64,000 nucleotides of DNA from an uncultured Desulfovibrionaceae bacterium (GTDB lineage: Bacteria; Desulfobacterota; Desulfovibrionia; Desulfovibrionales; Desulfovibrionaceae). The stretch covers positions 1,582 through 65,581 of the forward strand of contig CAYJNA010000001.1 of assembly GCA_964371225.1 (NCBI GenBank), in the 5' to 3' direction. The notes under the pieces are model-generated. The model saw only the letters and a program-made list of their open reading frames with translations. It searched no databases and was not told the DNA's origin. Both the position numbers and the translations under genes were made by a program. This document shows positions 5,513-51,851 of this stretch, one piece after another (within the stretch, counting starts at the first letter, position 1; the number at the start of each line of letters is the position of its first letter).

Positions 5513-5516
5513 TATT

Positions 5517-9800: not shown

Positions 9801-9940
9801 CCATGTCTGCTCATGCCATGAAGGGGGATAAAGAAATGAGTATATCCCATGGTATGAACGATCATATTACAAAACCCATTGATCCGGAAGTGCTGTATAA
9901 AACTCTGCAGTATTGGATTACCAATAATAAAAAAATGTAA
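6809..9940 (+). CDS. Soluble hybrid sensor histidine kinase (about five tandem PAS modules, HisKA, HATPase_c, receiver)
   Basis: 1043 aa with no TM segment. Repeated PAS modules share the LSP(E/K)FQPxGE..S..(F/W)EW pattern. H-box [11 protein letters not shown]-boxes DTGIG/GGTGLGL, and a C-terminal REC (LLAEDNDIN...[10 protein letters not shown]). Confidence 0.9.
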
Positions 9941-9950
9941 AAGCCATAAA

Positions 9951-9985
9951 AAAAACTCCCGCAATATTGTGGGAGTTTACTTTTA
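9951..9985. terminator. Bidirectional hairpin between the kinase gene and tRNA-Sec
   Basis: AAACTCCC-(10 nt)-GGGAGTTT flanked by an A-run and T-rich sequence. On the minus strand the stem is followed by a long U-run, so it also fits termination of the ubiX/tRNA-Sec transcript. Confidence 0.5.
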
Positions 9986-9989
9986 TAGT

Positions 9990-10083
9990 TGGCGGAGGCG
10001 TATAGGAGTCGAACCTACCACGGACATCTCTGCCCGCCACTGGTTTTGAAGACCAGGCGCAACACCGGTTACGAAACGCCTCC
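9990..10083 (-). tRNA. selC: tRNA-Sec (anticodon UCA)
   Basis: 94-nt minus-strand sequence GGAGGCGTTTCGTAACCGGTGTTGCGCCTGGTCTTCAAAACCAGTGGCGGGCAGAGATGTCCGTGGTAGGTTCGACTCCTATACGCCTCCGCCA. It has an 8-bp acceptor stem (GGAGGCGT/ACGCCTCC) and anticodon stem CTGGT/ACCAG with loop CTTCAAA (UCA). It also has a long variable arm, GGTTCGACTCC T-loop and encoded CCA. The layout parallels E. coli selC. Confidence 0.9.
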
Positions 10084-30237: not shown

Positions 30238-31119
30238 TTACCATGAAGTGGCAGAAAGTTGCGCCAATCCTTTAATTAACACTTGCGTGCCATCCTTTCC
30301 ATGCCCATGTGCCTCCAAGAGACGATAGGCTTGTTCAGCCATGGTCAGACCAGGAAGGTTTAATCCCATGCGGCGGCATTCGTCTATGCACAGGCCAAGA
30401 TCTTTACGAAAATGTTCTACAAAAAAGCCAGGTGCAAAATCGTTATCTACAATACGCTTACCAAGCACATTCATGGCAGTGCTCCCAGCAGCGCCGGGAA
30501 CAACAGTTTCGCGCCATGTGGACACATCAAGACCGCATTTTTTAGCAAAAAGTAAGGATTCACATACAGAAAACATAACCCCTGCAATGGCAATTTGATT
30601 AGCTAATTTAGCCTTTTGCCCCATACCGGCGCCGCCGCAGTGTACAATGGTTTTCCCCATTTTTTCAAAGCAGGGGAGCAGAGCTTCATAGGCTTGCTGT
30701 GTGCCGCCCACAAAGATGGAAAGGGTGGCATTTTTCGCACCCACATCACCGCCGGTTACGGGTGCATCCACAGCTAGGCAATCTTTTTGTGCAGCAGCAG
30801 TGGCAATGCGTTCGGCAAGATTGGGGCAAGAGGTGGTCATATCACAAAGAATACCACCAGTCTTAAGACCAGCTAAAGCACCATTTTCACCCAACATAAC
30901 TTCTTCCACATCATGAGGAAAGCCCACAATGGAAAAGACAATGTCTGATTTTTCAGCCACTTCGCGAGGGCTTTGCGCCCAAGTGGCACCCATATCAAGA
31001 AGGGCAGAGGCTTTTTCTTTGGTGCGGCTATAAATAACAAGTTCGTAACCGGCTTTGCGTAAATTTGCGGCCATGGAAAGCCCCATGATACCAGTACCAA
31101 TCCATCCTACAGTTTTCAT
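30238..31119 (-). CDS. NAD(P)-dependent 3-hydroxyacid dehydrogenase (3-hydroxyisobutyrate / tartronate semialdehyde reductase family)
   Basis: 293 aa. GWIGTGIMGLSMAANL Rossmann motif and family-typical central and C-terminal regions. Own SD AAGGAG, 17 nt after the FGE-domain gene. Confidence 0.85.
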   Translation of the reverse strand: MKTVGWIGTGIMGLSMAANLRKAGYELVIYSRTKEKASALLDMGATWAQSPREVAEKSDIVFSIVGFPHDVEEVMLGENGALAGLKTGGILCDMTTSCPNLAERIATAAAQKDCLAVDAPVTGGDVGAKNATLSIFVGGTQQAYEALLPCFEKMGKTIVHCGGAGMGQKAKLANQIAIAGVMFSVCESLLFAKKCGLDVSTWRETVVPGAAGSTAMNVLGKRIVDNDFAPGFFVEHFRKDLGLCIDECRRMGLNLPGLTMAEQAYRLLEAHGHGKDGTQVLIKGLAQLSATSW

Positions 31120-31136: not shown

Positions 31137-32816
31137 TTATTTTTTGAGAATATCTTTTTGTAATTGCTCCACTGTAACCGCTTTATAATTATTTTCTCGT
31201 GTGTATTGAAGATGTTTTTCGAATAATTGGATATTTTTTAATAGCTCTAAACTAAAAGTATCTCCAACAGAAGCTAAATCTTTTTTTACTTGTTGTAATG
31301 CTTCATTAATTAAGCTGCTATCATTGGCACGTAAGTCTTCAATTTTTGTTTTATAAAATTGCGTGGTTTGCCTAATGGCATTATGGAAATTTGTAATGCC
31401 GTTCTTTGCTTTTTGGATACTAGCATCAACTTTAGCAAGAACACTTTTATCGGTATTAGCTTTTTTCAAGCCTTCAAGATTAGTTATAGTACCTTGAATA
31501 ATGGCAATTCGAGAAGAAAAATTCTGTACTGATTCAATGAGATAGGCCATGTTACGAATTTCAGAAACAGCAGTGAGCATTTGCTGTCTTTCAAAAGCAA
31601 TATTATTTTCTTTTAAAATATTACGTAAATGCTGATAATTCTTTTTTTCTGCTTCGTCGGTGGTGCCAGCTATAAGACGATCAATTTCATCCAAAGGATT
31701 ATTTTTTGTATCTAATAAAAGACTTGGTTTTTCACCGGCTTGCGCCCATTCATTTTGCAAAACCTCTTGACGATTCCCCCCCGGAGTATTAATGCCGGAA
31801 AGGGCTAAACGAAAGCCCATATCACGTAGGTATACGGCTCCATCTACCTGAAAAAAAGCAACTTCTTCACGTCTACCGGGGTAAATTTCTTCTAAGCTTG
31901 AGAGAAAGCTTCCGCCTTTACGTATAAAGCCCCCAGCAGAACCATGTAAACGGCCGCCTAAAGAAAAGCGAAATACATCCATAACCATTTCAGCCACATT
32001 TCCTGCTGTATCATACAAGCCCAGCTTATTAGGCTTGCGTGAACCAATACGTAAGGGGCTTTCCTCGATTCGGGAGGCATTTTCGGGGCGATACACCGCA
32101 TATACGGTATGGTCTTCTCCATCACCCAAGGGGAAAAAATCTTCTTCTAAAAATTGTTGTGCCGTGGTGGTATGCCCCCCTCTGGCGGCATATTCCCATT
32201 CAATTTCTGTAGGAAGGCGTAAGTAGCCCACATTACGCGTGTCATCTTTAAAATGTGGTAAAGATTGCGGATGGTTTTGTAAAAGCCATTCTGTATATTT
32301 TTGTGTAAATTCCGTAGCTTCGTACCAAGAAATTTCTGTTTTTGGGCGTACATTTTCTGCTGAAGGAGCAGGGCATATGCCTTGCATAATAGCATCCCAT
32401 TGTAGGCCGGTTACTTCATATTTTCCTATGAGGTAGTAAAGAAAATCACCTGATGGAGTTTGCTTTTGCCAGGCCTTGGGTAAATCTCCTTTAGCAAAAG
32501 GTGCCGCAAGAGTGGCTGTATGGCGGCTATCATAATAAGCCCTATCTTCACTTTGTGCGTTGTCATAGCCAAAACGTGTGCTCATATCCCACAAAAAACC
32601 TTTGGCGGGTACGCCCACAATTTTAAAAATCATGGACATATCACAAGGCATGGGGAGAGAAATATCTCCTGAGCTGGGTACGGGGTTATATCCTTCTTCT
32701 AATTTTGCGCTTCCTTTTAGGGTCAACGCTGCATGTGCAGAGGAAGTAGCCCCCCCAAATCCTGCACAACCTAAACAAAAACATAAAGCCCAAGGAGCCA
32801 GCTTATTATATATCAC
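31137..32816 (-). CDS. Exported FGE-sulfatase (SUMF1/EgtB/PvdO) domain protein with a roughly 200-aa C-terminal coiled-coil region
   Basis: 559 aa. Signal or lipoprotein-like N-terminus (FCLGCAG). YLRLPTEIEWEYAARGG, LGLYDTAGNVAEMV and RKGGSF motifs of the FGE fold. The helical tail has heptad character. Confidence 0.8.
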   Translation of the reverse strand: MIYNKLAPWALCFCLGCAGFGGATSSAHAALTLKGSAKLEEGYNPVPSSGDISLPMPCDMSMIFKIVGVPAKGFLWDMSTRFGYDNAQSEDRAYYDSRHTATLAAPFAKGDLPKAWQKQTPSGDFLYYLIGKYEVTGLQWDAIMQGICPAPSAENVRPKTEISWYEATEFTQKYTEWLLQNHPQSLPHFKDDTRNVGYLRLPTEIEWEYAARGGHTTTAQQFLEEDFFPLGDGEDHTVYAVYRPENASRIEESPLRIGSRKPNKLGLYDTAGNVAEMVMDVFRFSLGGRLHGSAGGFIRKGGSFLSSLEEIYPGRREEVAFFQVDGAVYLRDMGFRLALSGINTPGGNRQEVLQNEWAQAGEKPSLLLDTKNNPLDEIDRLIAGTTDEAEKKNYQHLRNILKENNIAFERQQMLTAVSEIRNMAYLIESVQNFSSRIAIIQGTITNLEGLKKANTDKSVLAKVDASIQKAKNGITNFHNAIRQTTQFYKTKIEDLRANDSSLINEALQQVKKDLASVGDTFSLELLKNIQLFEKHLQYTRENNYKAVTVEQLQKDILKK

Positions 32817-34134
32817 GAATAACCTCCGAAGGTATAATTTTAGACGCTTTTATGGCTGGAATACACGTTGCGGCTAAAGATAAGAGAAGAACAATACCAA
32901 AGCCCAAAGCAAAATGTTCCGGCGGTAAGGAGCATATTTCTTCTGTGGCATCTTGTCTACTTTGTGCAAAAAGATATTCAATCAAATGTGCGGCAAGGCC
33001 ATAGAGCACAGCGGCAAGGGTGGAGCCCAAGGCAGCTGTTAAAAAACTTTGAAAAAGAGGGAAGACCATTATATCTGCCCCATTATAACCCACAAGGCGT
33101 AATATACCAAGATAGCGTTCTTTTCTGCGAACAGCAGCCAGGGCATGGCTGGCAGTGGATGCTAAAAAGCCCAAGGCAGCCGTGGTACCAATAAGCCCGA
33201 AAATTAAATTGAGCGAATCATTAAGCGCACGAACCGTGGCAATTTCTTCGGCCTTGGTGTACACATCAATGGATTTGGCGGCAAAAAGTTCACGTAAGGC
33301 CGTTACAGAGTCTAAGTCTTTGGCATACAAACGAAAAGCAGGGTACACACGAGCGCCTTCAGGGGCAATATCGCCTGTCCAGCCTTGCTCTTCGCTCAAA
33401 CGTACATCTTTTTGCGGTTGACGCCCATCACGAAAGTCTTCTGTGGCTTCCAAAAGCTGTAAAGGAACAAAGGCTACGTCTTTTTGTTGTACCGACAAGG
33501 GAAGAATGCTTTGCACCCATAATACCACTGTGGCGCGTTGTACCTTACCCTGATGTAAACGCTCCACTTGACCTTGTAAAAGGCTTTGTGTTGTGGCAGA
33601 AAGCTTACGTGCAGCTTCCGCAGAAAGGGTAATGGCAAAGGCATTGTCCGGTTTTTTTGCCGCATGTGTTACAGCCTGTGCGCTATCACCTTCTGGTGTT
33701 TTTGCTTCTTCCGATGATTTTTCCTTTTCTTCTGCATCTTGTTGCTGCATATAGGGCGCTAGTAGCGTATCTCCGGAGGCTGTGGGCTCAAGAGAAGCCG
33801 TAATGCGTTTTAGCATATTGGTTTCACCTAGTATGCGTATATCCATGGTAGAAGCGATAGAGCGTGTTTTTGGTAAAATAAAACCCACATGAGGATTTTT
33901 CGCCATTTCCTCAATCCATGCCTTGGTATAATGCCCACTAGATACAGGAATAATTTCTAAATTATGCGGATTATTTTGTAATCTATCTGTCATGGTGGTA
34001 ATAATGCCGTACTTTACCCCATACAAAACCAAAAGCGGCGTTAATACCGCTGCTAAAGAAAGAATAGCGCAAGCAGAAAGTAAAGTTTCATGGCAATAGT
34101 CTTTCATTGCCAATACGCATGATTTAGTTAACAT
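32806..34134 (-). CDS. ABC transporter permease, FtsX/MacB type
   Basis: 442 aa. TM1, a large (about 270 aa) extracytoplasmic domain with an acidic insert, then three C-terminal TM helices (FtsX domain). Overlaps both neighbours (7 and 11 nt). Confidence 0.75.
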   Translation of the reverse strand: MLTKSCVLAMKDYCHETLLSACAILSLAAVLTPLLVLYGVKYGIITTMTDRLQNNPHNLEIIPVSSGHYTKAWIEEMAKNPHVGFILPKTRSIASTMDIRILGETNMLKRITASLEPTASGDTLLAPYMQQQDAEEKEKSSEEAKTPEGDSAQAVTHAAKKPDNAFAITLSAEAARKLSATTQSLLQGQVERLHQGKVQRATVVLWVQSILPLSVQQKDVAFVPLQLLEATEDFRDGRQPQKDVRLSEEQGWTGDIAPEGARVYPAFRLYAKDLDSVTALRELFAAKSIDVYTKAEEIATVRALNDSLNLIFGLIGTTAALGFLASTASHALAAVRRKERYLGILRLVGYNGADIMVFPLFQSFLTAALGSTLAAVLYGLAAHLIEYLFAQSRQDATEEICSLPPEHFALGFGIVLLLSLAATCIPAIKASKIIPSEVIRDI

Positions 34135-34958
34135 GTGCCGCTCCCTATGCCTGCTGTTCCCACGGGTTTAACTTCGTATATATCTTGAGAGTTGGGGCTT
34201 TCTTCTTCCATATATTGGGGCTCCTGCCATGTGGTAGTGGCGCCCATATGCGCGTAAATTTGCCCTTCTTCGCGTGTAACTTCAGTGGTCACAAGCCGAA
34301 AACCAGCAGCTTTGGCGCTGTCTGGTGAATGGCTTACCATAACAACACTAATATGTTTTTCTTGTGCAATGGAAGTGAATAATTCCAAAACCAATTGCGC
34401 ATTGTAAGGATCTAACGATGCCACAGGTTCATCTGCTAAAATAAGCTTAGGCTCATGCACAAGAGCGCGCGCTATGGCAAAGCGTTGACGCTCCCCCACA
34501 GACATTTGCGCCGGTTTTTTTTGTAGTAAATGTGTAATATCTAAAATTTGTGCAAGGTTTACTATACCTTCTTTATGTTTTGCATCAACACAACATAAGG
34601 CAATATTTTCATACCCATTTAAAAAGGGAAGGAGCCCACCTGTTTGCAAGATATAGCCTATATACGTACGTCGCAAAGCTGCAAGAGAGCTTTGTTTGCC
34701 TTGACGCCAAAGTTGCAATATGTCCACAGGCATGTCTTGAGGGCAAAAGGAAAATACGCTGCCCTCCTGTATGCCAGGTTCTAAAGCTGTGGATAACATA
34801 TCCAAAGCTGTACTTTTGCCGCATCCGCTGGGGCCAACTAAGGCCACAAGCTCACCGCGCTGCACAGTAAAGCCTTCCATATGTAAGGAGAAGATTTCAC
34901 TAAGCCCATGCTGTTTATGCAAGTGGGCTATATTAATTATGGGTTGTGTTATATTCAT
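34128..34958 (-). CDS. ABC transporter ATP-binding protein
   Basis: 276 aa. Walker A GPSGCGKST, degenerate signature MSVGERQR, Walker B ILADEP and H-loop VSHS. About 50-aa C-terminal extension. Confidence 0.9.
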   Translation of the reverse strand: MNITQPIINIAHLHKQHGLSEIFSLHMEGFTVQRGELVALVGPSGCGKSTALDMLSTALEPGIQEGSVFSFCPQDMPVDILQLWRQGKQSSLAALRRTYIGYILQTGGLLPFLNGYENIALCCVDAKHKEGIVNLAQILDITHLLQKKPAQMSVGERQRFAIARALVHEPKLILADEPVASLDPYNAQLVLELFTSIAQEKHISVVMVSHSPDSAKAAGFRLVTTEVTREEGQIYAHMGATTTWQEPQYMEEESPNSQDIYEVKPVGTAGIGSGTC

Positions 34959-35115
34959 ATTTTCCGTGCTATGAGGTTATGTTGTGATAAAAAAACGGTT
35001 ATAATGGTGTAAAATATACTGTAAAAATAATATGATATAATATATTAAATGATTTTATTTTTATATAAAGTAGTTCAGATGATGATTAAAAATTTTGCTG
35101 TAATCAAAAATGTAA

Positions 35116-35152
35116 TTTGAGGGAAAACATACTGTAAAAGTTTTCCCTCAAA
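35116..35152 (-). terminator. Strong hairpin terminator ending the Srf-type operon
   Basis: Perfect 13-bp stem TTTGAGGGAAAAC / GTTTTCCCTCAAA with an 11-nt loop. It starts 22 nt after the vWA-gene stop and is followed on the minus strand by T-rich sequence. Confidence 0.65.
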
Positions 35153-35173
35153 CTACACGATAAAAATATACTA

Positions 35174-37117
35174 CTAAGGAAGCATGGTAAGCGGCACGCG
35201 ATACATCCAATCACCGGGATTAGTAGCGCCAAAACTTTCCCAATGACTGCGATCTTTGTCATATTCCTCATAACGAGCAAGACGAGATTTCAATCTATTG
35301 ATGAAAGTGGTTTGCTGACCAATGCTCATACGATACCAATCTTCTTCGCGCAGAAGCATAATGTCACTCTTATAGGGTAAGCCTTCTAAGAATTCACCCA
35401 AAACACCCAGCTGGGAAAGGTTTTGTCCTTGTGGCATGGGGCTATTGGGGTCACGCGCGGCGCGTGTGGATGCGGATAAGATACCTTGGAAAAAGTCTTT
35501 AGCATCGGTTTTTTTGGTACGCTCAGCATTATCAATAATAATGGAGAGTTGCTGACTAAGGTCATTAAGCTGATTCTTGGTTAAAAGTACAGCCACTTCT
35601 ACAGTGGAAACTTGCTCTCCGCGGGCAAGCTTTTGTAAATCCATATCGGCAATCCATGAATCAAGTACAGAAGGAGCCCGTACTTCATTGGCTTTACCAA
35701 AGTATTCTAATTGCATGGCATAGCCAAGGGCAGCCGCCATTTGCTTAGCTTCTTCTTCAGGATTAAGCTTTTTACCTGGTTCATTGGCAGGCTTTGTAAC
35801 AAGTTTTCCGTCCATGGTCATCTGTACCATGGAAACAATGCCGGAAGTTAAGGCTTTAGACGTGACGCCAAAGTTATTCACACCTTCTTGAATGGTGTTG
35901 GCATTGACAGAAAGATAATTGGAACGACTATCAGAAAGACGAGTTAACAAACGATATGCCTGTTCTGCTTCCGCATGATTTTTCTTCCCTTTAGGGGATT
36001 TTATGTGCAAAGCGGATAGGCGCACCCCTTTAGTGCGGGCATAGTCTGCCAATTCCGGCATATCCATTTTCACCGTTGCGTAAGGATCGCTGGGGGAAAG
36101 TGGCCCGGCATCAGTAATCACAATGAGCATTCTTGTGCTATAATCTGACCAGCTTAAAGAGTCCAAAGCCATTTTAATACCGGAAGGGGAGTTTTCCGTA
36201 AAAGTATGTGTGGACACGCTGGCTTCTTTTACTTTGGCCAGCTCCGTTTCTAACATTTTACGATCCTTGGCTGTCACAAGGTCACTGACAACACGACTTT
36301 CATACTCTGTACCGGGTTTTGCTTCTGGGCTGCTACGAAAAGCCACCACGCCAAAGGCCACATCATCTTCTAGATTAGCATTTTCCAACTGATCATACAC
36401 AGAGCGAATAACGTTAAGGCTCTGATCAATGTATGGCTTCATGGATATGGTGGTATCAATAACAAAAGCTATGGCTGTACGTGGTGTTGATTTAGACGCC
36501 TCTTCCTTACTTTGCCCAGGATCAATAGAGGCCACTTCTAAAAACTTTACGCCCTCAAAGGGGTCATTCATGGCCAAAATGGGCATAAGATAAAAACGTG
36601 AAGCATCTACAGCGCCTTCTTTTTCAGAAGGTTCTGTGGCAGCAACCTGAGCACCATCTAAGAGGTTTTGATTTTTATCAAGCACGGCTTTTTGAATATC
36701 AAAAAGTTTTTTCTCCATTTGTGTAGAAGTACAAATATCCATAAGTCCTTTTTCGTTTTTGAAAAAAACTAAAGGATTACGGGAGCTTCTTTCAGTAAAG
36801 AGAAGGGTGAGAGATTGATTCCATTCTGTTGACTTGGCTTGCTCAATCCAGCCTAAGGGTTGCGTTCCTGAAGGCCCCACCTGTAACCAACCATTTTGCT
36901 CTGCAAATACATAAAAAACTGTGAAGGGCTTTACATTTTCTTGCACTATGCCAGAAGAAGCACTGGGCCCTTGCATAATATCAGCGTCAGGATGCGTTAT
37001 AATTCGCTGATACAAAGTTTTTTTTCCCTCTTGTAATAGGGGAGTGGCTGCAAACACTTGACTATGCAAGGCGCTTAAAAAAGCCATGCACACAAGAAAA
37101 CATACAAGTTTACGCAT
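35174..37117 (-). CDS. Periplasmic von Willebrand factor A domain protein with an N-terminal SH3-like domain
   Basis: I trimmed the 687-aa track ORF to the internal ATG at 37117 (MRKLVCFLVCMAFLSALHS signal peptide, SD GGAG 8 nt upstream). This removes the overlap with the upstream gene. MIDAS-like AFVIDTTISM and GVVAFRS strands of a vWA fold, plus a roughly 250-aa uncharacterised C-terminal domain. Confidence 0.7.
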   Translation of the reverse strand: MRKLVCFLVCMAFLSALHSQVFAATPLLQEGKKTLYQRIITHPDADIMQGPSASSGIVQENVKPFTVFYVFAEQNGWLQVGPSGTQPLGWIEQAKSTEWNQSLTLLFTERSSRNPLVFFKNEKGLMDICTSTQMEKKLFDIQKAVLDKNQNLLDGAQVAATEPSEKEGAVDASRFYLMPILAMNDPFEGVKFLEVASIDPGQSKEEASKSTPRTAIAFVIDTTISMKPYIDQSLNVIRSVYDQLENANLEDDVAFGVVAFRSSPEAKPGTEYESRVVSDLVTAKDRKMLETELAKVKEASVSTHTFTENSPSGIKMALDSLSWSDYSTRMLIVITDAGPLSPSDPYATVKMDMPELADYARTKGVRLSALHIKSPKGKKNHAEAEQAYRLLTRLSDSRSNYLSVNANTIQEGVNNFGVTSKALTSGIVSMVQMTMDGKLVTKPANEPGKKLNPEEEAKQMAAALGYAMQLEYFGKANEVRAPSVLDSWIADMDLQKLARGEQVSTVEVAVLLTKNQLNDLSQQLSIIIDNAERTKKTDAKDFFQGILSASTRAARDPNSPMPQGQNLSQLGVLGEFLEGLPYKSDIMLLREEDWYRMSIGQQTTFINRLKSRLARYEEYDKDRSHWESFGATNPGDWMYRVPLTMLP

Positions 37118-37151
37118 GATACTGCTCCAATTAATGTTTTTATCGAATCTC

Positions 37152-37982
37152 TTAAAGTGTTTCTTTACTGTTGGTGTCAGATTTGTTTTGTGTATTTTCA
37201 AACCATTCCTCATATAAAGCAGTAAGAAGCCCTTCATCTTTTAAGTGTTTAATTTTTAGGCTCACTTCATCACGAAATTTTTTTTGTTTTTTAGAAAAAA
37301 GATAGCCGTAGTATTGTTCTTTTAAGCTGGGCTCTAAAATATGAGTGCCGCTTACATTTTGTATAATTTTTTGCAAGAAAACTTTGTCACCCAATAAAGC
37401 TTCTACTTCACCATTTTCCAACAAGTCTATAAGACTATCTTCATGCCTCAAAGCATAAATGATACCATTTTTTAAAGAATCAAAAGCGTATTTTTCTGCA
37501 GGGCTTCCTTTAAGAACACCTACAATGCTTGAAATAAGATCTTCATTACTGTCAAGGGGACTTTGCTCCAGCACTAAGGCGTGCAAATTAGATTGCAAAT
37601 GCGATTCAGAAAAAAGAAAACGATCTTGCAATCTTTGTGTAATCATGCGGCTAGAAAGAAGCATATGGCAGCTTCCATTATCCAACATGGCTAAACCTGT
37701 AGCAAAGTCTGTAGTAATAAATTCAATAGAATATGGTAATTCCATAGCTTGAAGTACCGCAATGTCAAAACCGCGCCGTACACCGTCTTCATCGTGAAAA
37801 ATGTACGGCGGGTTATCTACTGGTAAACAAATGGGAATCATTTGCTGTGCGTAACTAGGCGAAACACAAAGTGAAAAAATGCATATTGAAAAAAGAAACA
37901 TTCTTTTTTTATAGTGCTCAAAAGTTGCTCTACTTCTTGGAAATAGGCCATTTACGGTTTTTGCTTTTTCACTTCTTATCAT
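37152..37982 (-). CDS. Periplasmic solute-binding-protein family 3 (PBPb)-like protein
   Basis: 276 aa. Signal peptide (FSLCVSPSYAQ). PPYIFHDEDGVRRGFDIAVLQAM and ..GEVEALLGDK.. pattern of amino-acid-type SBPs. No cognate permease or ATPase of that class is adjacent. Confidence 0.65.
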   Translation of the reverse strand: MIRSEKAKTVNGLFPRSRATFEHYKKRMFLFSICIFSLCVSPSYAQQMIPICLPVDNPPYIFHDEDGVRRGFDIAVLQAMELPYSIEFITTDFATGLAMLDNGSCHMLLSSRMITQRLQDRFLFSESHLQSNLHALVLEQSPLDSNEDLISSIVGVLKGSPAEKYAFDSLKNGIIYALRHEDSLIDLLENGEVEALLGDKVFLQKIIQNVSGTHILEPSLKEQYYGYLFSKKQKKFRDEVSLKIKHLKDEGLLTALYEEWFENTQNKSDTNSKETL

Positions 37983-38006
37983 ATACGCAATGCTCCTTAA
38001 ATATTT

Positions 38007-39233
38007 TTACTTTTTCCAAATGTTTAATAGTTCTTTTGCTGAAGCATCGCCTTTTTGAGCTGCTTCTTCTGCCCAGGTGCGTAATCGTTCTAAAGAGGCC
38101 GCTGCTTGCGCATCTCCGGCTTGCTGGGCTCTGGTATACCATGTATAGGCTTCACGAGCATCGGGAGTTATAGTTCCTTTAGCTTCTGTGGAGCTGGGGT
38201 CATAATAGGTACCAAGGCCGTTCATAGCTTCATTCATGCCTTTTTGAGCTGCATCTTCCAATAAAAGAAAAATAGCATCCTGTGCCTTTACGTCATTGGC
38301 TGCTTGTTCTTTTAATGATTGAGCAAGATTATAGCTCTTTTCAGCGGCGTCATTTTTACGCATAAGTTCTCTGGCAGATTCCATGGGCCCCAATGGCGTT
38401 GTGGAGCTTTCAGTTTTTTGTGTATCTTCTGTTGCGCCTTGAGCGTCATTGGCAGCATCGTTGTCAGACTCTTTACCAGCATCTTCTTTAGTAGCATCTT
38501 CTTGTGCAGCATCTTGAACGTCGTCATCCTTAGCGGTGTCATTTTTGGCATCTGCATCATTTTGAGCGGCATCATCTTCAGCTTTGTCTGCATCATCTTT
38601 TTGAGTTTCTTCAGTGGTGGTGCCATCTTGCGCAGCTGTATCTTTATATTGTGTGAAATACCACCACAGGGCACCGCCTAAAAGTGCGCATAAAAGCACT
38701 ATGCCTAATATAATTGGAAGAGGGCTTTTTTTAACCGGCTCTTCAGGGGGCATATCCACGCTAGGTAGGGGGTCTGGTTCGGGGCTAGCTTCCGGCATGG
38801 GCTCCGGTTCTGGTATGGGTTCTGGTTCCGGCTCTGGAGCAGGCTCTGCCACCACTGCGGCCGCCGCCACAGGAGCTGCCATCCCCACACCCTGACCACC
38901 GGCCATGGATGATTGCAAAATATCATCAATAACAAGATTATAGGTAGTTACGGTACCTGTGGCATCTTTGATATGTAATTTGTACATATCAAGCTTATCA
39001 AGATGGTCTACCACATTGGGACCCACAGCAAGGCGCAATACTTCATTTTCACAATCCCATGCTTCAGGCTCTAAAAAAACTTCGGCACTTTGCCAACCTT
39101 CGGGAGAAAGGGAATTTCTGTCAGAAGCATTAATAAGAGCAAAAGTAGGCACGGAGGTACACTGTAAAGGTGTTACAATGATAATACCGTTTCCTGGGCC
39201 TTTGTGCGGATCTGGAATAAAACTAGCTGGCAT
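38007..39233 (-). CDS. Bitopic membrane protein: N-terminal globular domain, Pro/Glu-rich linker, TM, acidic low-complexity region, C-terminal Sel1-like repeats
   Basis: 408 aa. PEPEPEPIPEPEPMPEASPEPDP, TM LPIILGIVLLCALLGGALWWYF, and a D/A/K/E-rich stretch of about 80 aa. C-terminus GMNEAMNGLGTYY...AYTWYTRAQQAGDAQAAASLERL is Sel1/TPR-like. Confidence 0.6.
   Translation of the reverse strand: MPASFIPDPHKGPGNGIIIVTPLQCTSVPTFALINASDRNSLSPEGWQSAEVFLEPEAWDCENEVLRLAVGPNVVDHLDKLDMYKLHIKDATGTVTTYNLVIDDILQSSMAGGQGVGMAAPVAAAAVVAEPAPEPEPEPIPEPEPMPEASPEPDPLPSVDMPPEEPVKKSPLPIILGIVLLCALLGGALWWYFTQYKDTAAQDGTTTEETQKDDADKAEDDAAQNDADAKNDTAKDDDVQDAAQEDATKEDAGKESDNDAANDAQGATEDTQKTESSTTPLGPMESARELMRKNDAAEKSYNLAQSLKEQAANDVKAQDAIFLLLEDAAQKGMNEAMNGLGTYYDPSSTEAKGTITPDAREAYTWYTRAQQAGDAQAAASLERLRTWAEEAAQKGDASAKELLNIWKK
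38730..38849 (-). repeat. Coding low-complexity (Ala/Pro then Pro-Glu dipeptide repeats)
   Basis: Encodes AEPAPEPEPEPIPEPEPMPEASPEPDPLP. GC-rich periodic DNA in an otherwise AT-rich gene. Confidence 0.7.
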
Positions 39234-39242
39234 GATATATCC

Positions 39243-47799: not shown

Positions 47800-47801
47800 A
47801 A

Positions 47802-48602
47802 TTAACCTTCCAATGCGGCTTGTAAAATAGCGTCATTGGTGGCAATTTGTTTTTCCACATCAACGCGCGTAGTTTCAAGTTCTGTACGAGAAGCTTTCCA
47901 AGAATTGGTGCTTTGTGCCACCTTACGTACTTCAGGATTTTTAATTTTTGCAGGATTTTGCTGCGCTATCATAAGATTTTGTGTACCGCCCACTTCTTGC
48001 GTCATGACCTTTTGATATTCAAGATCTTTTTCTGCAGAATTTGTATAGGTGGTTTGTAAAATACGTGCTGTTTCTTCAAGGCCGGCACGAATTTCTGTGT
48101 AACGTGCGCTGAGTTGTTGCTTGGTAATGGTACCAGCTTTGGCTTGGCTAATGGCTGCAGTAAATTCTCTTTCATAGCATTGAGATGCAATTTTAGCCGC
48201 TGCAGTGGCACGATTCATGGAGGCTGTTTCTGAGTTTAACTGACTGGCATATTTAGCATAGAATTGAGCATCACGTTTTGCTTGTTGATTCTTTCCATAA
48301 ATATTTCCACCTACAGCACCAGCAGCACCACCAGCAGCAGCACCCACTAAAGCGCCACTAGCCTTACCTGTGAGCAAGCCGCCCAAAATAGCACCTACAA
48401 TGGCACCACCCACTGCGCCTGTAGCTGTGGCATTACCTGTGAGATTTTCGTCATTGCGTAATTCTGCCACAGGTTGATAACAAGCAGGGTAGTGCTTCAC
48501 TTGTGTGGTTTGTGTGCCATACTTACTTGCACAACCTGTCATTATAAAGGTACCTAAAACAAGCACTCCAATAACAGGATTCATCTTTCCAAAGCAAAAC
48601 AT
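47802..48602 (-). CDS. Glycine-zipper lipoprotein with a helical C-terminal domain
   Basis: Track ORF trimmed to ATG 48602 (SD GGAGG 5 nt upstream). MFCFGKMNPVIGVLVLGTFIMTGCAS lipobox. GAVGGAIVGAILGGLLTGKASGALVGAAAGGAAGAVGG glycine zipper (17-kDa antigen/SlyB-like), then a roughly 170-aa helical region. Confidence 0.65.
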   Translation of the reverse strand: MFCFGKMNPVIGVLVLGTFIMTGCASKYGTQTTQVKHYPACYQPVAELRNDENLTGNATATGAVGGAIVGAILGGLLTGKASGALVGAAAGGAAGAVGGNIYGKNQQAKRDAQFYAKYASQLNSETASMNRATAAAKIASQCYEREFTAAISQAKAGTITKQQLSARYTEIRAGLEETARILQTTYTNSAEKDLEYQKVMTQEVGGTQNLMIAQQNPAKIKNPEVRKVAQSTNSWKASRTELETTRVDVEKQIATNDAILQAALEG

Positions 48603-48965
48603 ATTAACCTCCATGAATAGTTTCTTTTTCATACAATAAACATCCTTTAGTATGAAAAAATAAATTCCCATGTGAAACTTTATGTTATTAGCAAAAATTG
48701 AAAAGTTCCACGCCTCATAATATCGCAAGTAATATAGCTTATTTTTCCATAATGGGCAAGTAAGTCATGCTTTATCCCTTCTGCATTTGCTAAGTAAATA
48801 CCATGGCATATGCCTAAGAAAAAAAGTGTCTTTTTTCTTGCGGGCTGAAGGTTTGTGCGTTAATATCTATAAGTGTTTTTTTGCGTCATTATTTTATGTA
48901 CTGCGTAAAACTGCGGTTTTAGTGGTGCCATTTTTCTTGTATCACAGAAAATTTGGAGGATTTTT

Positions 48966-49919
48966 ATGAAACGTATTTTGCTTCTAACTTTGTCCGCTGC
49001 TTTGGTGCTTATGGCATCTGCAGGTTTTGCCGCTGACACTAAACACCTTACCATGGGCACTGGCGGTACTGCTGGTGTGTACTATCCCCTAGGCGGCGCC
49101 ATTAGCCAAACGTTAAGTTCCAAAAGTGATGGTGCTTACTCTGTTACTGCGCAAACCACAGGTGCTTCAGGCGAAAACATGCGCCTTATTGATGCCAATG
49201 AAGTGGACTTAGCCATTTTACAAAATGATGTAGCACACTCTGCGTACAATGGACTTGCTCCTTTTAAAGAAAAACTTGGCAAGGTACGCGCTATTGCTCG
49301 TTTATATCCTGAGTACTTACACGTTGTTGCCAGCACTGATAGCGGTGTAAAACAATTTGCAGACTTTAAAGGAAAAAAAGTTTCCGTAGGTGCACGTGGC
49401 AGCGGCAATGAAGTAAATTGTCGTCAAATATTTGAATTTTATGGCCTTGATTATAAAAATGTAGAGCCTGTATTCTTACCATACGGCGAAACAGCTGACC
49501 AATTTAAAGATCGCGCCGTTGATGGCTTTGTCTTTACCATTGGTACACCTAATCCTGCCATTCAAGATATTACCACTTCACGCGAAGTTACCTTCATCCC
49601 CCTTGATGGCAAACCCAGTGATGAAATTGTGGCTAAATTCCCTTATCTTGTAAAAGACGCCATCCCTGCCAATACGTATAAAGGGCAAACAGCCGCTGTT
49701 CCTACACTTTCCGTGCAGGCTATCCTTGTGGTAAGTGAAGACATGTCTGATGAAGATGCTTATCGCATCACAAAGATTTTGTTTGAAAATACCGACACCA
49801 TTGCTAAGGCACATAATAAGGGCGCTGAAATTAAAATTGAAAAAGCCCTTGATGGTATTACCATTCCTTTCCACCCAGGTGCTGAAAAGTATTTGAAAGA
49901 AAAGGGCATTATGAAATAA
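48966..49919 (+). CDS. TAXI-family TRAP transporter solute receptor
   Basis: 317 aa. Signal peptide. GTGGTAGVYYPLGGAI motif and overall TAXI (NMT1/Imp-like) pattern. Confidence 0.85.
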   Translation: MKRILLLTLSAALVLMASAGFAADTKHLTMGTGGTAGVYYPLGGAISQTLSSKSDGAYSVTAQTTGASGENMRLIDANEVDLAILQNDVAHSAYNGLAPFKEKLGKVRAIARLYPEYLHVVASTDSGVKQFADFKGKKVSVGARGSGNEVNCRQIFEFYGLDYKNVEPVFLPYGETADQFKDRAVDGFVFTIGTPNPAIQDITTSREVTFIPLDGKPSDEIVAKFPYLVKDAIPANTYKGQTAAVPTLSVQAILVVSEDMSDEDAYRITKILFENTDTIAKAHNKGAEIKIEKALDGITIPFHPGAEKYLKEKGIMK

Positions 49920-50408: not shown

Positions 50409-51851
50409 TTATTTTTCTTTGCTAGCCAAAGGCACAGCTACAAAGGTCACTTCACCGCGACGGCTTACTTGCAGCATAACCGCACCGCGAGATGTTACAT
50501 CCTTAATGATTTTTGCTAATTCCTTAGCGTCTTTAACAGGTGTTAAGTTAGCAGAAAGGATAACATCACCTTGTCGAATACCAGCTTCGCTAGCAGGTTT
50601 TCCTTGTGCTACTTCCACAACTAAAAGACCTTGACCCTTTTCAAGGCTATGGGCTTTTGTTTCTTCAGCTGTGAGCGGACGTACAGAAATGCCAAGAGTT
50701 GCAGCTTCCTGCTTTTCAGCATCGGCGGGGCCGTTTCGTTGTGCATTTAATTGGTCTGCATTGCGTTCACCAAGGGTAATGGTTAATTTCTTTTCTTTAC
50801 CATCGCGCCATACAGTAACTGTGGTTTTAGCGCCGGGCTTTTGGCCTGCAATGGCGCGTAGTAGGGCGGCAGGGTCTGCAACCTTGGTGTCATCCACAGC
50901 AATGATAACATCACCAGCTTTTACGCCAGCTTTGTCTGCAGGCTCATTTTCCATAACATTACTTATGAGCGCACCTTGAGCTTTTTCAAGGCCAAGAGCT
51001 TTGGCGGCATTTTCGCTAAGCCCTTGCATGGTTACGCCAATCCAACCGCGACTGACTTTTTTACCAGCTTTTAATTGCTCAGTAACATTGGCAGCTTGTG
51101 AGCTTGGAATGGCAAAGCCAATACCTTGCCCACTGGCTATGATGGCAGTATTAATGCCCACCACTTCACCGGCCATGTTCAAAAGAGGGCCACCACTATT
51201 ACCGGGGTTAATGGAAGCATCTGTTTGCAAAAAGTTATCAAAGGGGCCGGAATTAATATTACGGCCTTTGGCAGAAAGAATACCGGATGTCACCGTATGC
51301 TCAAGACCAAAAGGGTTACCAATGGCAAGAACCCACTCACCCACACGAGCTTTATCAGAGTCAGCAAATGTTAAGTAGGGTAATTTTTCTTTAACCTCTA
51401 CTTTAAGTAATGCTATATCTGTTTCTTCATCAGAGCCCACAAGTTTTGCGGGTATGGCTTCAGATTTGCCAATGGCTCCTTGCAGATTTACATTAATGAT
51501 ATCAGCGCCTTTAACCACATGAAAATTAGTTACAATATAGCCGTCATCAGAAATAATAAAACCTGTACCTAAGGATTTTTGCTTACGCTCAGGGTTACGA
51601 GGTTGTTGTCCTTGAAATGGTTGAAATTGCTCAAAGAATTTTTCAAATCCTGGGGGCACACCTGGCATAAACTCATTCATAAAATTCTGTTTATTACCAG
51701 AGGTATTTTTTTCTGTGCTAATATTTACCACAGAAGAGCCTGCTTTTTCAGCTAAATCTACAAAGTTGGGCAGACTCGAAGCTTGCGCCATACTGGTACT
51801 GAGCAGTACAGCAAAAAATAAAAATTGAAAGACCGTTTTACGAATAATCAT
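50409..51851 (-). CDS. htrA: Periplasmic serine endoprotease DegP/DegQ/HtrA (two PDZ domains)
   Basis: 480 aa. Signal peptide, TNFHVV / D..LLKV / GNSGGPLLN triad and two PDZ repeats. Confidence 0.9.
   Translation of the reverse strand: MIIRKTVFQFLFFAVLLSTSMAQASSLPNFVDLAEKAGSSVVNISTEKNTSGNKQNFMNEFMPGVPPGFEKFFEQFQPFQGQQPRNPERKQKSLGTGFIISDDGYIVTNFHVVKGADIINVNLQGAIGKSEAIPAKLVGSDEETDIALLKVEVKEKLPYLTFADSDKARVGEWVLAIGNPFGLEHTVTSGILSAKGRNINSGPFDNFLQTDASINPGNSGGPLLNMAGEVVGINTAIIASGQGIGFAIPSSQAANVTEQLKAGKKVSRGWIGVTMQGLSENAAKALGLEKAQGALISNVMENEPADKAGVKAGDVIIAVDDTKVADPAALLRAIAGQKPGAKTTVTVWRDGKEKKLTITLGERNADQLNAQRNGPADAEKQEAATLGISVRPLTAEETKAHSLEKGQGLLVVEVAQGKPASEAGIRQGDVILSANLTPVKDAKELAKIIKDVTSRGAVMLQVSRRGEVTFVAVPLASKEK

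What the first reader, a model, noticed from the sequence alone, without database searches (positions are those of the whole stretch)
35174..48602. Eight-gene, translationally coupled SrfA/SrfB/SrfC-centred envelope operon with protease, Sel1, SBP-like and vWA partners
Seen in sequence: eight minus-strand genes run from 48602 to 35174 with intergenic distances of only 2, 3, -1, 35, 9, 24 and 34 nt. Each has its own SD, and the block ends in a perfect 13-bp-stem hairpin (35116..35152). The order is: (1) glycine-zipper lipoprotein; (2) TM-anchored trypsin-like protease; (3) SrfA-position bitopic protein; (4) SrfB-like 1063-aa protein; (5) SrfC-like 884-aa protein; (6) Sel1-repeat bitopic protein; (7) SBP-like periplasmic protein; (8) periplasmic SH3-like plus vWA protein. 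Established knowledge: srfABC were named as SsrB-regulated factors in Salmonella and later tied to the flagellar regulon, and some homologues are reported as toxic. No molecular mechanism is established as far as I know. Inference: two large cytoplasmic NTPases are encoded with three single-pass proteins and four exported or periplasmic modules. That composition looks like a trans-envelope machine for sensing, defence, or remodelling or delivery across the envelope, rather than a soluble virulence factor. I know of no description of this extended gene set. A possible sigma70-like promoter lies upstream on the minus strand (TTGCCC-17 nt-TATATT; -10 at 48731..48736).
Basis: partly seen in the sequence, partly recalled or inferred. 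Interest (0 to 1): 0.85.

Follow-up and report, generated by a model that had tools for sequence, protein, structure and literature searches.

The report
SrfABC envelope cluster with TagQRST-like sensor
This is a real, widely conserved but functionally unsolved gene cluster that joins a dynamin-like GTPase and an Hsp70-like ATPase to membrane-spanning and periplasmic partners resembling an envelope-damage sensor; the gene set was already described, so the locus is a new member and not a discovery.

Summary
The eight minus-strand genes, their spacings (2, 3, -1, 35, 9, 24, 34 nt), their Shine-Dalgarno sites and the 13-bp hairpin are all confirmed. HMMs confirm SrfA, SrfB and SrfC and the accessory domains.

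The block is incomplete. After the hairpin come three more conserved partners: an ABC ATPase, an FtsX-type permease and a periplasmic FGE-fold protein. With the TagQ-like lipoprotein (gene 1) these form a TagQRST-like module.

In 84 related loci the order TagQ/protease/SrfA/SrfB/SrfC/g6/vWA/ABC/permease/FGE recurs (52-96% per gene). It occurs in Desulfovibrionaceae and on Alpha- and Gammaproteobacterial plasmids, including 114 Klebsiella plasmids. The SBP gene is specific to one sub-clade.

Predicted structures match bacterial dynamin-like proteins for SrfC and full-length Hsp70 for SrfB. The nucleotide-binding motifs are invariant.

The neighbourhood was published for host-associated Deltaproteobacteria in 2013 and again in a 2026 preprint, so "no description" is wrong.

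Best mechanism (inferred): a TagQRST/vWA envelope sensor coupled through bitopic SrfA-type adaptors to an Hsp70-like/dynamin-like inner-membrane remodelling module, with no T6SS seen nearby.

Verdict: new member of a known, uncharacterised kind; moderate interest.

The parts
48731..48759 (-). Sigma70-like hexamers TTGCCC-17 nt-TATATT upstream of gene 1. A candidate promoter only.
   Evidence: Found by the scan, but promoter-like sites are not enriched over shuffles (32 found, 37 expected).
47802..48602 (-). g1: TagQ-like outer-membrane lipoprotein with a glycine zipper and a lipobox (MTG|C).
   Evidence: NCBIfam VI_TagQ E=5.6e-36 over profile positions 14-263 of 301, below the equivalog cutoff. 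Pfam Gly-zipper_Omp 2.3e-6. Lipobox seen. Present in 52% of related loci, sometimes at the far end of the cluster.
46585..47799 (-). g2: bitopic inner-membrane protein with a periplasmic trypsin-like serine protease domain.
   Evidence: Trypsin_2 3.8e-22. TM segment at residues 54-72. His/Asp/Ser triad conserved in 40 homologues. Found in 62% of loci. In some loci the protease is fused to an SrfA-N domain.
45124..46581 (-). g3: SrfA. Cytoplasmic N-domain, Ala/Pro-rich linker, one TM segment, and a Cys-rich periplasmic C-domain carrying an FLxGCW motif.
   Evidence: NF040486 SrfA_fam, 222 bits against a cutoff of 150. TM segment at residues 208-226. Conservation profile. The domain description as pseudokinase-like N-domain and lipocalin-like C-domain comes from the preprint and was not re-tested here.
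41933..45124 (-). g4: SrfB, a 1063-aa cytoplasmic Hsp70-like (actin-fold) ATPase.
   Evidence: PF07520, 866 bits. AF2 model pLDDT 85, pTM 0.85. Foldseek top hits are full-length DnaK, BiP and Hsp110, E about 1e-13 to 1e-10, about 820 aligned columns. DxGNSRTxG, DxGGGTxD and LTGRPS motifs are invariant in 81 homologues.
39243..41897 (-). g5: SrfC, an 884-aa cytoplasmic dynamin-like GTPase of the BDLP/mitofusin class.
   Evidence: PF10139, 871 bits. AF2 model pLDDT 86, pTM 0.84. Foldseek hits: SynDLP 3.8e-8, BDLP 2.9e-6, then Fzo1, Campylobacter DLP, MxB, MFN1, Drp1, IniA and LeoA. G1, switch I, G3 and G4 motifs are invariant or nearly so in 64 homologues. Weak PADLOC LeoBC/LeoA hits at the N-terminus.
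38007..39233 (-). g6: bitopic protein with a cytoplasmic N-domain, a Pro/Glu-rich linker, one TM segment, an acidic low-complexity region and a Sel1/TPR-like periplasmic C-domain.
   Evidence: Weak Sel1 match, E=0.0086. TM segment at residues 172-190. It follows SrfC in 96% of loci with enough flank. No detectable relation to SrfA-N.
37152..37982 (-). g7: periplasmic family-3 solute-binding protein. A sub-clade-specific insertion. The start codon is uncertain (37982 or 37901).
   Evidence: SBP_bac_3 6.7e-18. Present only in L001, L089, L090 and L091 (SrfB 68-85% identical) and absent from all 80 metagenome loci and from the plasmids. Start-codon ambiguity.
35174..37117 (-). g8: secreted SH3b-like plus vWA (MIDAS) protein with a conserved C-terminal domain.
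   Evidence: Weak SH3_4, TssR_VWA and VWA_4 hits. RefSeq orthologues are annotated as vWA domain-containing. DxTxS and TDAG motifs conserved in 43 orthologues. Found in 82% of loci.
35110..35158 (-). Stem-loop after g8 (13-bp perfect core at 35116-35152, extendable to 19 bp) followed by a T-rich tract. A likely intrinsic terminator or attenuator that splits the cluster into two transcription units.
   Evidence: dG -27.2 kcal/mol, z=-7.2. L001 has a hairpin of different sequence plus T7 at the same position. A 215-nt AT-rich spacer follows.
34128..34958 (-). g9: ABC ATPase of the LolD/DevA/MacB type, a TagT-like component.
   Evidence: ABC_tran 9.9e-26; best NCBIfam hits DevA, LolD and FtsE. 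Found in 84% of loci. TagT is assigned to COG1136 in the review.
32806..34134 (-). g10: FtsX-family permease with a large periplasmic loop, a TagS-like component. It overlaps g9 by 7 nt.
   Evidence: FtsX 9.1e-10; weak LolCE hit. TM segments. Found in 80% of loci. TagS is assigned to COG4591.
31137..32816 (-). g11: exported FGE-sulfatase/SUMF1-fold protein, a TagR-like component. It overlaps g10 by 11 nt.
   Evidence: PF03781 3.3e-23. PDB sequence hits to FGE-fold proteins (T. denticola variable protein, PorK, FGE). Found in 79% of loci. TagR is assigned to COG1262.

Best explanation
The locus is one member of a widespread, conserved envelope-spanning system with 10 core genes. Here it has 11 genes, in what look like two transcription units separated by the hairpin.

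Shown by tool results:
- SrfB matches Hsp70-type ATPases and SrfC matches BDLP/mitofusin-class dynamin-like GTPases. Both are cytoplasmic and both keep invariant nucleotide-binding motifs.
- They are encoded with bitopic inner-membrane proteins: SrfA, the protease and g6. In relatives the cytoplasmic SrfA-N domain is swapped onto different periplasmic domains.
- They are also encoded with a periplasmic vWA protein and a TagQRST-like set: an outer-membrane lipoprotein, an FGE-fold periplasmic protein and a MacB/Lol-type ABC pair.

Inferred mechanism:
1. The TagQ/TagR/vWA/TagTS-like components detect perturbation of the outer membrane or periplasm, as TagQRST does for the Pseudomonas H1-T6SS.
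2. The signal crosses the inner membrane through the bitopic SrfA-type adaptors.
3. The adaptors recruit or activate the SrfB-SrfC pair.
4. The dynamin-like GTPase then remodels the inner membrane at the site (repair, fusion, or vesicle formation). The Hsp70-like ATPase controls its assembly or holds the adaptor tails.
5. The anchored protease and the Sel1 protein act on periplasmic targets.
6. In this Desulfovibrionaceae sub-clade, an added solute-binding protein probably supplies a small-molecule input.
For: Anatomy and topology.

Folds:
- SrfC gives dynamin-family hits only at the top of the Foldseek list (SynDLP 3.8e-8, BDLP 2.9e-6). G1-G4 motifs are invariant in 64 sequences.
- SrfB matches full-length DnaK/BiP/Hsp110 (about 1e-13). 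ATP-binding motifs are invariant in 81 sequences.

Linkage: in loci with enough flank, SrfC is present in 95%, g6 96%, vWA 82%, ABC 84%, permease 80%, FGE 79%, SrfA 80%, protease 62% and TagQ 52%. Order and strand are the same across SrfB identities of 34-85%. The cluster is also on Klebsiella, Cereibacter and other plasmids and in D. sulfodismutans.

TagQRST correspondence: VI_TagQ HMM hit, and domain or COG identity of TagR, TagS and TagT with g11, g10 and g9. TagQRST senses envelope damage (PMC7817224).

Modular SrfA-N adaptor: it is fused to the protease in L004, L006 and L020-L027.

Physical SrfA-B-C complex: shown by co-IP and native PAGE for X. stockiae (PMC6950479).

No T6SS, kinase, FHA or phosphatase gene was seen among the ORFs I scanned, which were all those within about 6-10 kb of the cluster and a sample of 10 further away. 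Campbell et al. found T6SS machinery in only one of the host-associated genomes.
Against: - No experiment links any Srf protein to membrane repair or to envelope sensing. The direction of signalling (outside-in or inside-out) is unknown.
- SrfC has no hydrophobic paddle-like segment. Foldseek TM-scores are low (0.2-0.5) because the proteins are multi-domain, so the assignment rests on E-values, probabilities and motifs.
- Homology of g8 to the periplasmic vWA domain of PpkA could not be tested. tblastn found only orthologues.
- The TagQ match is below the equivalog cutoff. The correspondence for TagR, TagS and TagT is at the level of domains and COGs only.
- Minimal srfABC loci (Salmonella, Rahnella) work without any accessory gene, and a subclass has SrfA-SrfA-SrfB-SrfC-g6 only. 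The sensor module is therefore not obligatory.
- Published work assigns toxin or effector roles.
Confidence: 0.4

Rival explanations
1. SrfABC is a tripartite toxin or effector delivered to eukaryotic cells. The Lol-like ABC transporter, vWA and FGE genes serve to process and export it, for example through outer-inner membrane vesicles.
For: Lysates of E. coli expressing X. stockiae srfABC are cytotoxic and insecticidal, and the three proteins form a complex (PMC6950479). The 2026 preprint argues for OMV export. Salmonella SrfA is reported to act on Tollip/IRAK-1 (review PMC11942329). Some SrfC homologues are annotated as the effector HopL1.
Against: SrfB and SrfC have the folds of cellular machines (Hsp70-like, dynamin-like) with invariant catalytic motifs. 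Neither has a signal peptide, and SrfA is a bitopic membrane protein. The cluster occurs in free-living D. sulfodismutans and in contigs whose names mark them as TARA (marine) and other non-gut metagenome samples. Toxicity was measured with over-expressed proteins or lysates, not with native secretion.
Confidence: 0.12
2. It is a defence or conflict system against phage, conjation-type or T6SS attack. Envelope breach is sensed in the periplasm. The dynamin-like/Hsp70-like pair then seals the membrane or triggers abortive infection, with the protease as effector.
For: From my own knowledge, bacterial dynamin-like proteins protect against phage and pore-formers (DynA; the LeoBC/LeoA-type 'Eleos' system). 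SrfC gives weak PADLOC LeoBC/LeoA hits and the protease gives hits to RT-protease, LmuA and Avs protease models. The cluster is frequent on large plasmids. TagQRST responds to T6SS and T4SS attack.
Against: No full PADLOC system matches. The flanks in this window are housekeeping or transport genes, not a defence island. GC content is like the rest of the window. Synteny with the neighbouring NMT1_3 gene is kept in a relative, which suggests vertical inheritance.
Confidence: 0.2
3. It is an inside-out machine. Cytoplasmic NTP hydrolysis by SrfB/SrfC and the ABC ATPase drives periplasmic events, such as activation of the anchored protease, handling of the TagQ-like lipoprotein, or vesicle biogenesis. 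It does not sense damage.
For: From my own knowledge, MacB/Lol/FtsEX-type ABC systems work by mechanotransmission to periplasmic partners. SrfA-N is fused directly to the periplasmic protease in several loci. The preprint makes a LolF-like argument.
Against: There is no evidence for a transported substrate. The closest characterised relatives of the Q/R/S/T set act as a sensor. Minimal srfABC loci lack any periplasmic enzyme.
Confidence: 0.18
4. It is a surface-sensing or motility accessory linked to flagella.
For: In Salmonella, srfABC is under FlhDC control. Mutants in srfC or the whole srfABC operon swarm poorly but swim normally (PMC4219756). A fliK-like gene lies about 13 kb away in this window.
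Against: No flagellar gene is adjacent in this window or in the related loci examined. The conserved partners are envelope proteins, not flagellar ones.
Confidence: 0.08

Closest known systems
srfABC-tagQ/R/S/T-'ppkA'-hap-like neighbourhood of host-associated Deltaproteobacteria (Campbell et al. 2013, PMC3608642)
   Same: Same family of organisms, and the same genes in essence: TagQ-like lipoprotein, serine protease ('Hap-like'), SrfA/B/C, a vWA protein (called ppkA there), and TagT/TagS/TagR-like genes.
   Different: That paper gave names by BLAST or COG only and proposed no structure or mechanism. It reported the genes as specific to host-associated strains, whereas I find the cluster in free-living D. 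sulfodismutans and in contigs named as TARA (marine) and other non-gut samples. This window adds an SBP gene and a terminator-like hairpin before the ABC genes.
SrfABC of Salmonella enterica and Xenorhabdus stockiae ('SsrB-regulated factors', 'SrfABC toxin')
   Same: Homologous SrfA, SrfB and SrfC in the same order. The three proteins form a complex.
   Different: The Salmonella and Rahnella loci are minimal and have no g6, vWA, ABC, FGE or TagQ genes. Identity to SrfB here is about 32-34%. The published roles (toxin, effector) do not follow from the Hsp70-like and dynamin-like folds found here.
TagQRST-PpkA-Fha1-PppA threonine phosphorylation pathway of the P. aeruginosa H1-T6SS
   Same: An outer-membrane lipoprotein homologous to TagQ (HMM hit), a periplasmic FGE-fold protein (TagR, COG1262), a LolE-like permease (TagS, COG4591), an ABC ATPase (TagT, COG1136), and a periplasmic vWA domain, all clustered. 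From my own knowledge, PpkA carries a periplasmic vWA domain.
   Different: No Pkinase, FHA or PP2C domain and no T6SS gene was found in the cluster or among the neighbouring ORFs scanned. The vWA domain is a separate secreted protein. The cytoplasmic output would be SrfA/SrfB/SrfC and not Fha1/T6SS. The TagQ score is below the equivalog cutoff.
Bacterial dynamin-like proteins (BDLP, SynDLP, Campylobacter DLP1/2, IniA, LeoA, DynA)
   Same: The predicted fold of SrfC matches them over the whole length, and the G1-G4 motifs are conserved.
   Different: No sequence-level match to any solved DLP. No hydrophobic paddle. There is a roughly 220-residue insertion between switch I and G3. It is always paired with an Hsp70-like protein and with bitopic adaptors.
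Hsp70 chaperones (DnaK, BiP, Hsp110, HscC)
   Same: The predicted SrfB structure aligns with full-length Hsp70 in the ATP-bound open state. The phosphate-1, phosphate-2 and adenosine motifs are conserved.
   Different: It is almost twice the size, with an extra N-terminal beta domain and large insertions. There is no detectable sequence similarity to PDB Hsp70s. No J-protein or GrpE partner is present in the cluster.

Membership tests
SrfABC family | SrfA family protein (NCBIfam NF040486) | tested here: met
   222 bits against a cutoff of 150, full length.
SrfABC family | SrfB (Pfam PF07520) and SrfC (Pfam PF10139) full-length matches | tested here: met
   866 and 871 bits, covering nearly the whole profiles.
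SrfABC family | Adjacent, same-strand gene order srfA-srfB-srfC | tested here: met
   Gaps of -1 and 35 nt. The same order is seen in 80+ loci.
Extended Srf cluster (Campbell 2013; 2026 preprint) | srfABC flanked by a vWA protein, a Lol-like ABC ATPase and permease, and an FGE/SUMF1-fold protein | tested here: met
   g8, g9, g10 and g11. Co-occurrence 79-84%.
TagQRST module of the T6SS threonine phosphorylation pathway | TagQ outer-membrane lipoprotein | tested here: inconclusive
   VI_TagQ HMM E=5.6e-36 over profile positions 14-263 of 301, but 124 bits against a cutoff of 300. It is a homologue, not an equivalog. A lipobox is present.
TagQRST module of the T6SS threonine phosphorylation pathway | TagR (COG1262, FGE fold, periplasmic), TagS (COG4591 permease) and TagT (COG1136 ATPase) encoded together | tested here: met
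   Matches at domain level only: PF03781, FtsX and ABC_tran, with overlapping genes g9-g11. COG assignments are from the review. Orthology to the Pseudomonas proteins was not tested.
TagQRST module of the T6SS threonine phosphorylation pathway | Coupling to PpkA kinase, Fha, PppA and a T6SS gene cluster | tested here: not met
   No Pkinase, FHA, PP2C or T6SS domain in the 11 genes or in the neighbouring ORFs scanned. Not every ORF of the window was scanned.
Dynamin-like proteins | GTPase domain with G1-G4 motifs | tested here: met
   GxSQxGKS, TGLVTRF, DFPG and TKxD are invariant or nearly so in 64 homologues.
Dynamin-like proteins | Overall fold: G domain plus helical neck and trunk bundles | tested here: met
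   Foldseek against SynDLP, BDLP, Fzo1, MFN1, IniA and LeoA: E from 3.8e-8 (SynDLP) to 7.2e-3 (LeoA), probability 0.85-1.0, from a model with pLDDT 86. TM-scores are low (0.2-0.5).
Dynamin-like proteins | Membrane-binding paddle, and nucleotide-dependent self-assembly on lipid | tested here: inconclusive
   No hydrophobic segment in SrfC. Assembly cannot be tested with these tools.
Hsp70 family | Actin-fold nucleotide-binding domain with phosphate-1, phosphate-2 and adenosine motifs | tested here: met
   Motifs invariant in 81 homologues. Foldseek hits to DnaK, BiP and Hsp110 at about 1e-13.
Hsp70 family | Substrate-binding beta domain with lid, and J-protein/NEF partners | tested here: inconclusive
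   The alignment to full-length DnaK spans about 820 columns, and the model has a C-terminal beta-rich domain. No Pfam HSP70 hit even for fragments. No J-domain or GrpE gene in the cluster.
Known anti-phage defence systems (PADLOC) | Match of the gene set to a described system | tested here: not met
   Only isolated domain-level hits: a protease domain, generic ABC/AAA hits, and a weak LeoBC/LeoA hit at the N-terminus of SrfC.

The most novel reading that the evidence does not exclude
The Srf cluster is a T6SS-independent machine for envelope-damage surveillance and response. A TagQRST/vWA sensor signals through interchangeable SrfA-N adaptors to a previously unrecognised Hsp70-like/dynamin-like pair, which repairs or remodels the inner membrane. 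This would give SrfABC a cell-biological function after 25 years as 'virulence factors'. It would also show that TagQRST modules are general envelope sensors that T6SS borrowed.
Probability: 0.3. Interest if true: 0.8.

Novelty: new member of a known kind. Interest (0 to 1): 0.5.

Why it matters
SrfABC genes are annotated as "virulence factors" in thousands of genomes, and I found the full cluster on 114 Klebsiella plasmids. No mechanism is known. The fold assignments here (SrfC dynamin-like, SrfB Hsp70-like, both apparently catalytically competent) are predictions, but together with the fixed partnership with a TagQRST-like set and a vWA protein they turn a vague label into testable hypotheses about envelope sensing and membrane remodelling. 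They also offer a second, T6SS-free context in which to ask what TagQRST actually senses. For this window alone the news is modest. It is another member of a published neighbourhood, with an extra solute-binding protein.

Tried and rejected
- PADLOC scan: no defence system matched.
- Sequence search of the PDB with SrfB, SrfC and the vWA protein: nothing significant.
- Pfam on SrfB and SrfC fragments at E up to 10: only the Srf models, plus marginal P-loop, GBP and MMR_HSR1 hits.
- hhalign of the g6 N-domain against SrfA-N, and of the g6 C-domain against SrfA-C: no relation. The bitopic proteins therefore do not all share one adaptor.
- tblastn of the vWA protein against plasmids, looking for PpkA-type kinases: only full-length orthologues were found. 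The PpkA link stays untested.
- Promoter scan: not above chance.
- Rfam and repeat scans of the region: nothing except coding low-complexity repeats and an AT-rich palindrome.
- Exact look-up of the window's SrfB: not on record. The genome-collection scan returned only one close relative.
- Literature searches for SrfC as a dynamin or GTPase, or SrfB as an Hsp70 or ATPase: no paper found in the held library. That library lacks most subscription journals.
- Recent horizontal transfer into this genome: rejected for lack of a GC anomaly and because of conserved synteny with the neighbouring NMT1_3 gene.

Full report
**Observation**

The window carries eight consecutive minus-strand ORFs from 48602 to 35174. 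Every start has a purine-rich Shine-Dalgarno site upstream.

The stem-loop after the last gene is real and strong: a 13-bp perfect core, extendable to 19 bp, at -27.2 kcal/mol and z=-7.2 against shuffles. A relative with 85% SrfB identity (L001) has a hairpin of different sequence plus a T-run at the same place. That pattern argues for a conserved terminator or attenuator.

The proposed promoter hexamers exist, but such sites are no more common here than in shuffled sequence. The start of the SBP gene is uncertain: 37982 has an SD, while orthologues begin nearer an internal Met at 37901.

**Identity of the genes**

- HMM searches confirm SrfA (NF040486, above cutoff), SrfB (PF07520, 866 bits) and SrfC (PF10139, 871 bits).
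- Gene 1 is a glycine-zipper lipoprotein. It also matches the NCBIfam model for the T6SS-associated lipoprotein TagQ over nearly its whole length (E=5.6e-36, below the equivalog cutoff).
- Gene 2 is a TM-anchored trypsin-like protease with an intact catalytic triad.
- Gene 6 is bitopic with a weak Sel1 signature.
- Gene 7 is a family-3 solute-binding protein.
- Gene 8 is a secreted protein with weak SH3b and vWA matches and a conserved MIDAS-type DxTxS/TDAG motif.

**The block is longer than reported**

Beyond the hairpin and a 215-nt AT-rich spacer, three more genes lie on the same strand and overlap one another:
- an ABC ATPase of the LolD/DevA type (34958-34128);
- an FtsX-family permease (34134-32806);
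- an exported FGE/SUMF1-fold protein (32816-31137).

A recent review assigns TagR, TagS and TagT of Pseudomonas to exactly these COGs or domains (COG1262, COG4591, COG1136) and describes TagQ as an outer-membrane lipoprotein (PMC13584744). The locus therefore contains a complete TagQRST-like set plus a periplasmic vWA protein, wrapped around srfABC.

**Conservation**

I collected 91 related loci:
- one genome MAG;
- D. sulfodismutans;
- five plasmid records, from Klebsiella, Cereibacter, Methylobacterium, Salmonella and Rahnella;
- 80 metagenome contigs spanning 34-63% SrfB identity;
- three further Desulfovibrionaceae MAGs.

Iterative HMM searches with the 11 window proteins were run on the first 86 of these, and 84 entered the counts. 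Counting only loci with enough flank gave these frequencies:

| Gene | Present in |
|---|---|
| SrfC | 95% |
| g6 | 96% |
| vWA | 82% |
| ABC ATPase | 84% |
| permease | 80% |
| FGE | 79% |
| SrfA | 80% |
| protease | 62% |
| TagQ-like | 52% |

The genes are nearly always on the same strand and in the same order. In three loci TagQ sits after the FGE gene, at the far end of the cluster.

Three architectures emerge:
- minimal srfABC (Salmonella, Rahnella);
- SrfA-SrfA-SrfB-SrfC-g6, without the sensor genes;
- the full 10-gene form, to which this window belongs.

The full form is on 114 Klebsiella plasmids in PLSDB.

The SBP gene is found only in the window's sub-clade (SrfB identity 68% or more; L001, L089, L090, L091) and nowhere else. 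One of these relatives (L090) ends after the vWA gene and has no protease. That fits the hairpin marking a unit boundary.

**Folds of the two NTPases**

Neither SrfB nor SrfC matches any solved structure by sequence.

AlphaFold2 models built on 69 and 72 homologues are confident: pLDDT 86 and 85, pTM 0.84 and 0.85.

For SrfC, the best Foldseek matches in the PDB are exclusively dynamin-superfamily proteins of the fusion/BDLP class. SynDLP scores 3.8e-8 and BDLP 2.9e-6, followed by Fzo1, the Campylobacter DLP pair, MxB, mitofusin-1, Drp1, IniA and LeoA. The G1 (GxSQxGKS), switch I (TGLVTRF), G3 (DFPG) and G4 (TKxD) motifs are invariant or nearly so in 64 homologues. TM-scores are low (0.2-0.5). 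This is expected for long hinged proteins, but it means the assignment rests on E-values, probabilities and motifs.

For SrfB, 178 PDB hits fall below 1e-3. The list is led by full-length Hsp70s (DnaK, BiP, Hsp110) at about 1e-13, aligned over about 820 columns. The phosphate-1 (DxGNSRTxG), phosphate-2 (DxGGGTxD) and adenosine (LTGRPS) motifs are invariant in 81 homologues.

I found no paper in the held library that describes either assignment.

**Adaptors**

SrfA has a cytoplasmic N-domain, an Ala/Pro-rich linker, one TM segment and a Cys-rich periplasmic domain with the FLxGCW motif. A 2026 preprint models these as a pseudokinase-like domain and a lipocalin-like domain. I did not re-test that.

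In several loci the SrfA-N domain and TM segment are fused to the trypsin-like protease. Other paralogues carry only SrfA-C or only SrfA-N. SrfA-N therefore behaves as a portable cytoplasmic adaptor for different periplasmic modules. The g6 N-domain is unrelated to it.

**What was already known**

- Campbell et al. 2013 described this very neighbourhood in host-associated Deltaproteobacteria: srfABC, a Hap-like protease, tagQ, 'ppkA', ligA and tagR/S/T. They noted that most of these genomes lack a T6SS (PMC3608642).
- The 2026 preprint reports srfABC flanked by Lol-like ABC, vWA and SUMF1 genes in Haemophilus and Xenorhabdus, and argues for vesicle export of a toxin.
- X. stockiae SrfA/B/C form a complex, and lysates are cytotoxic.
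- Salmonella srfC and srfABC mutants swarm poorly.
- Salmonella SrfA has been called a secreted effector.

The statement that no mechanism is established stands.

**Mechanism**

Shown:
- the composition, topology and linkage of the genes;
- predicted folds supported by conserved catalytic motifs.

Inferred, by analogy with TagQRST, which senses envelope damage from T6SS or T4SS attack, polymyxin, or depletion of BamA/LptD:
1. The periplasmic and outer-membrane components detect envelope perturbation.
2. The bitopic adaptors pass the signal to SrfB and SrfC.
3. The dynamin-like GTPase remodels or repairs the inner membrane, with the Hsp70-like ATPase regulating it.

I give this about 0.4.

Rivals:
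- a defence system (0.2);
- an inside-out NTP-driven periplasmic machine (0.18);
- a toxin or effector (0.12);
- a motility accessory (0.08).

The toxin reading is hard to square with the housekeeping-type folds, the membrane anchoring, and the presence of the cluster in a free-living sulfate reducer and in contigs named as TARA (marine) and other non-gut samples.

**Context**

The cluster sits among chromosomal housekeeping genes (ispG, proS, xseA, dxs, hemA, recN). Its GC content is like the rest of the window. No T6SS, kinase, FHA or phosphatase gene appeared among the ORFs I scanned. Not every ORF of the window was scanned.

**Verdict**

The locus is a new member, with an added SBP gene, of a published but mechanistically unsolved cluster. 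Interest is moderate (0.5). The value lies in the fold assignments and the T6SS-free TagQRST link, not in the locus itself.

Noticed in passing
window 35022-35063: An AT-rich near-palindrome (21-nt arms, 86% complementary, no spacer) lies in the 215-nt spacer between the hairpin and the ABC ATPase gene. It could be an operator or promoter element for a second transcription unit.
   Followed up: no
window 50409-51851 (-): A DegP/HtrA-type protease with two PDZ domains lies about 1.8 kb upstream of the cluster, beyond a divergently transcribed NMT1_3 TRAP-type binding protein at 48966-49919. The NMT1_3 neighbour is also conserved in relative L089.
   Followed up: partly
window 9990-10083 (-) and 4000-10000: A tRNA-Sec gene (ARAGORN and Rfam) lies next to a low-GC stretch (0.33-0.36 against about 0.43). 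The stretch encodes a CHASE-GGDEF protein and a PAS-rich hybrid histidine kinase.
   Followed up: no
L004, L006, L020-L027 (protease genes upstream of srfA): In these relatives the trypsin-like protease carries a full SrfA-N domain and TM segment at its N-terminus. Other loci have extra paralogues with only SrfA-C or only SrfA-N. One is the Klebsiella gene annotated as 'tellurite resistance domain protein'.
   Followed up: partly
L090 (GCA_964368075.1, CAYJAD010000036.1): A relative with 74% SrfB identity has TagQ-like, SrfA, SrfB, SrfC, g6, SBP and vWA genes. It has no protease, and unrelated genes on the opposite strand follow directly after vWA. The ABC/permease/FGE unit is therefore absent from this site.
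   Followed up: no
L005 and 113 other Klebsiella plasmid records: The full cluster (TagQ-like to SUMF1) sits on large IncFIB/IncHI1B-type Klebsiella plasmids next to IS elements. One record annotates the vWA gene as 'Serine/threonine protein kinase'.
   Followed up: partly
window 27394-29811 (-) and 30238-31119 (-): Directly downstream of the FGE-fold gene lie a 2-hydroxy-3-oxopropionate reductase-like dehydrogenase and a PAS/HAMP methyl-accepting chemotaxis protein. Neither is found next to the cluster in the other loci examined.
   Followed up: partly
window 45257-45886 (+): A 209-aa ORF lies antisense inside srfA. It falls in the low-complexity Pro/Lys/Glu repeat region and looks like a shadow ORF, not a gene.
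   Followed up: no
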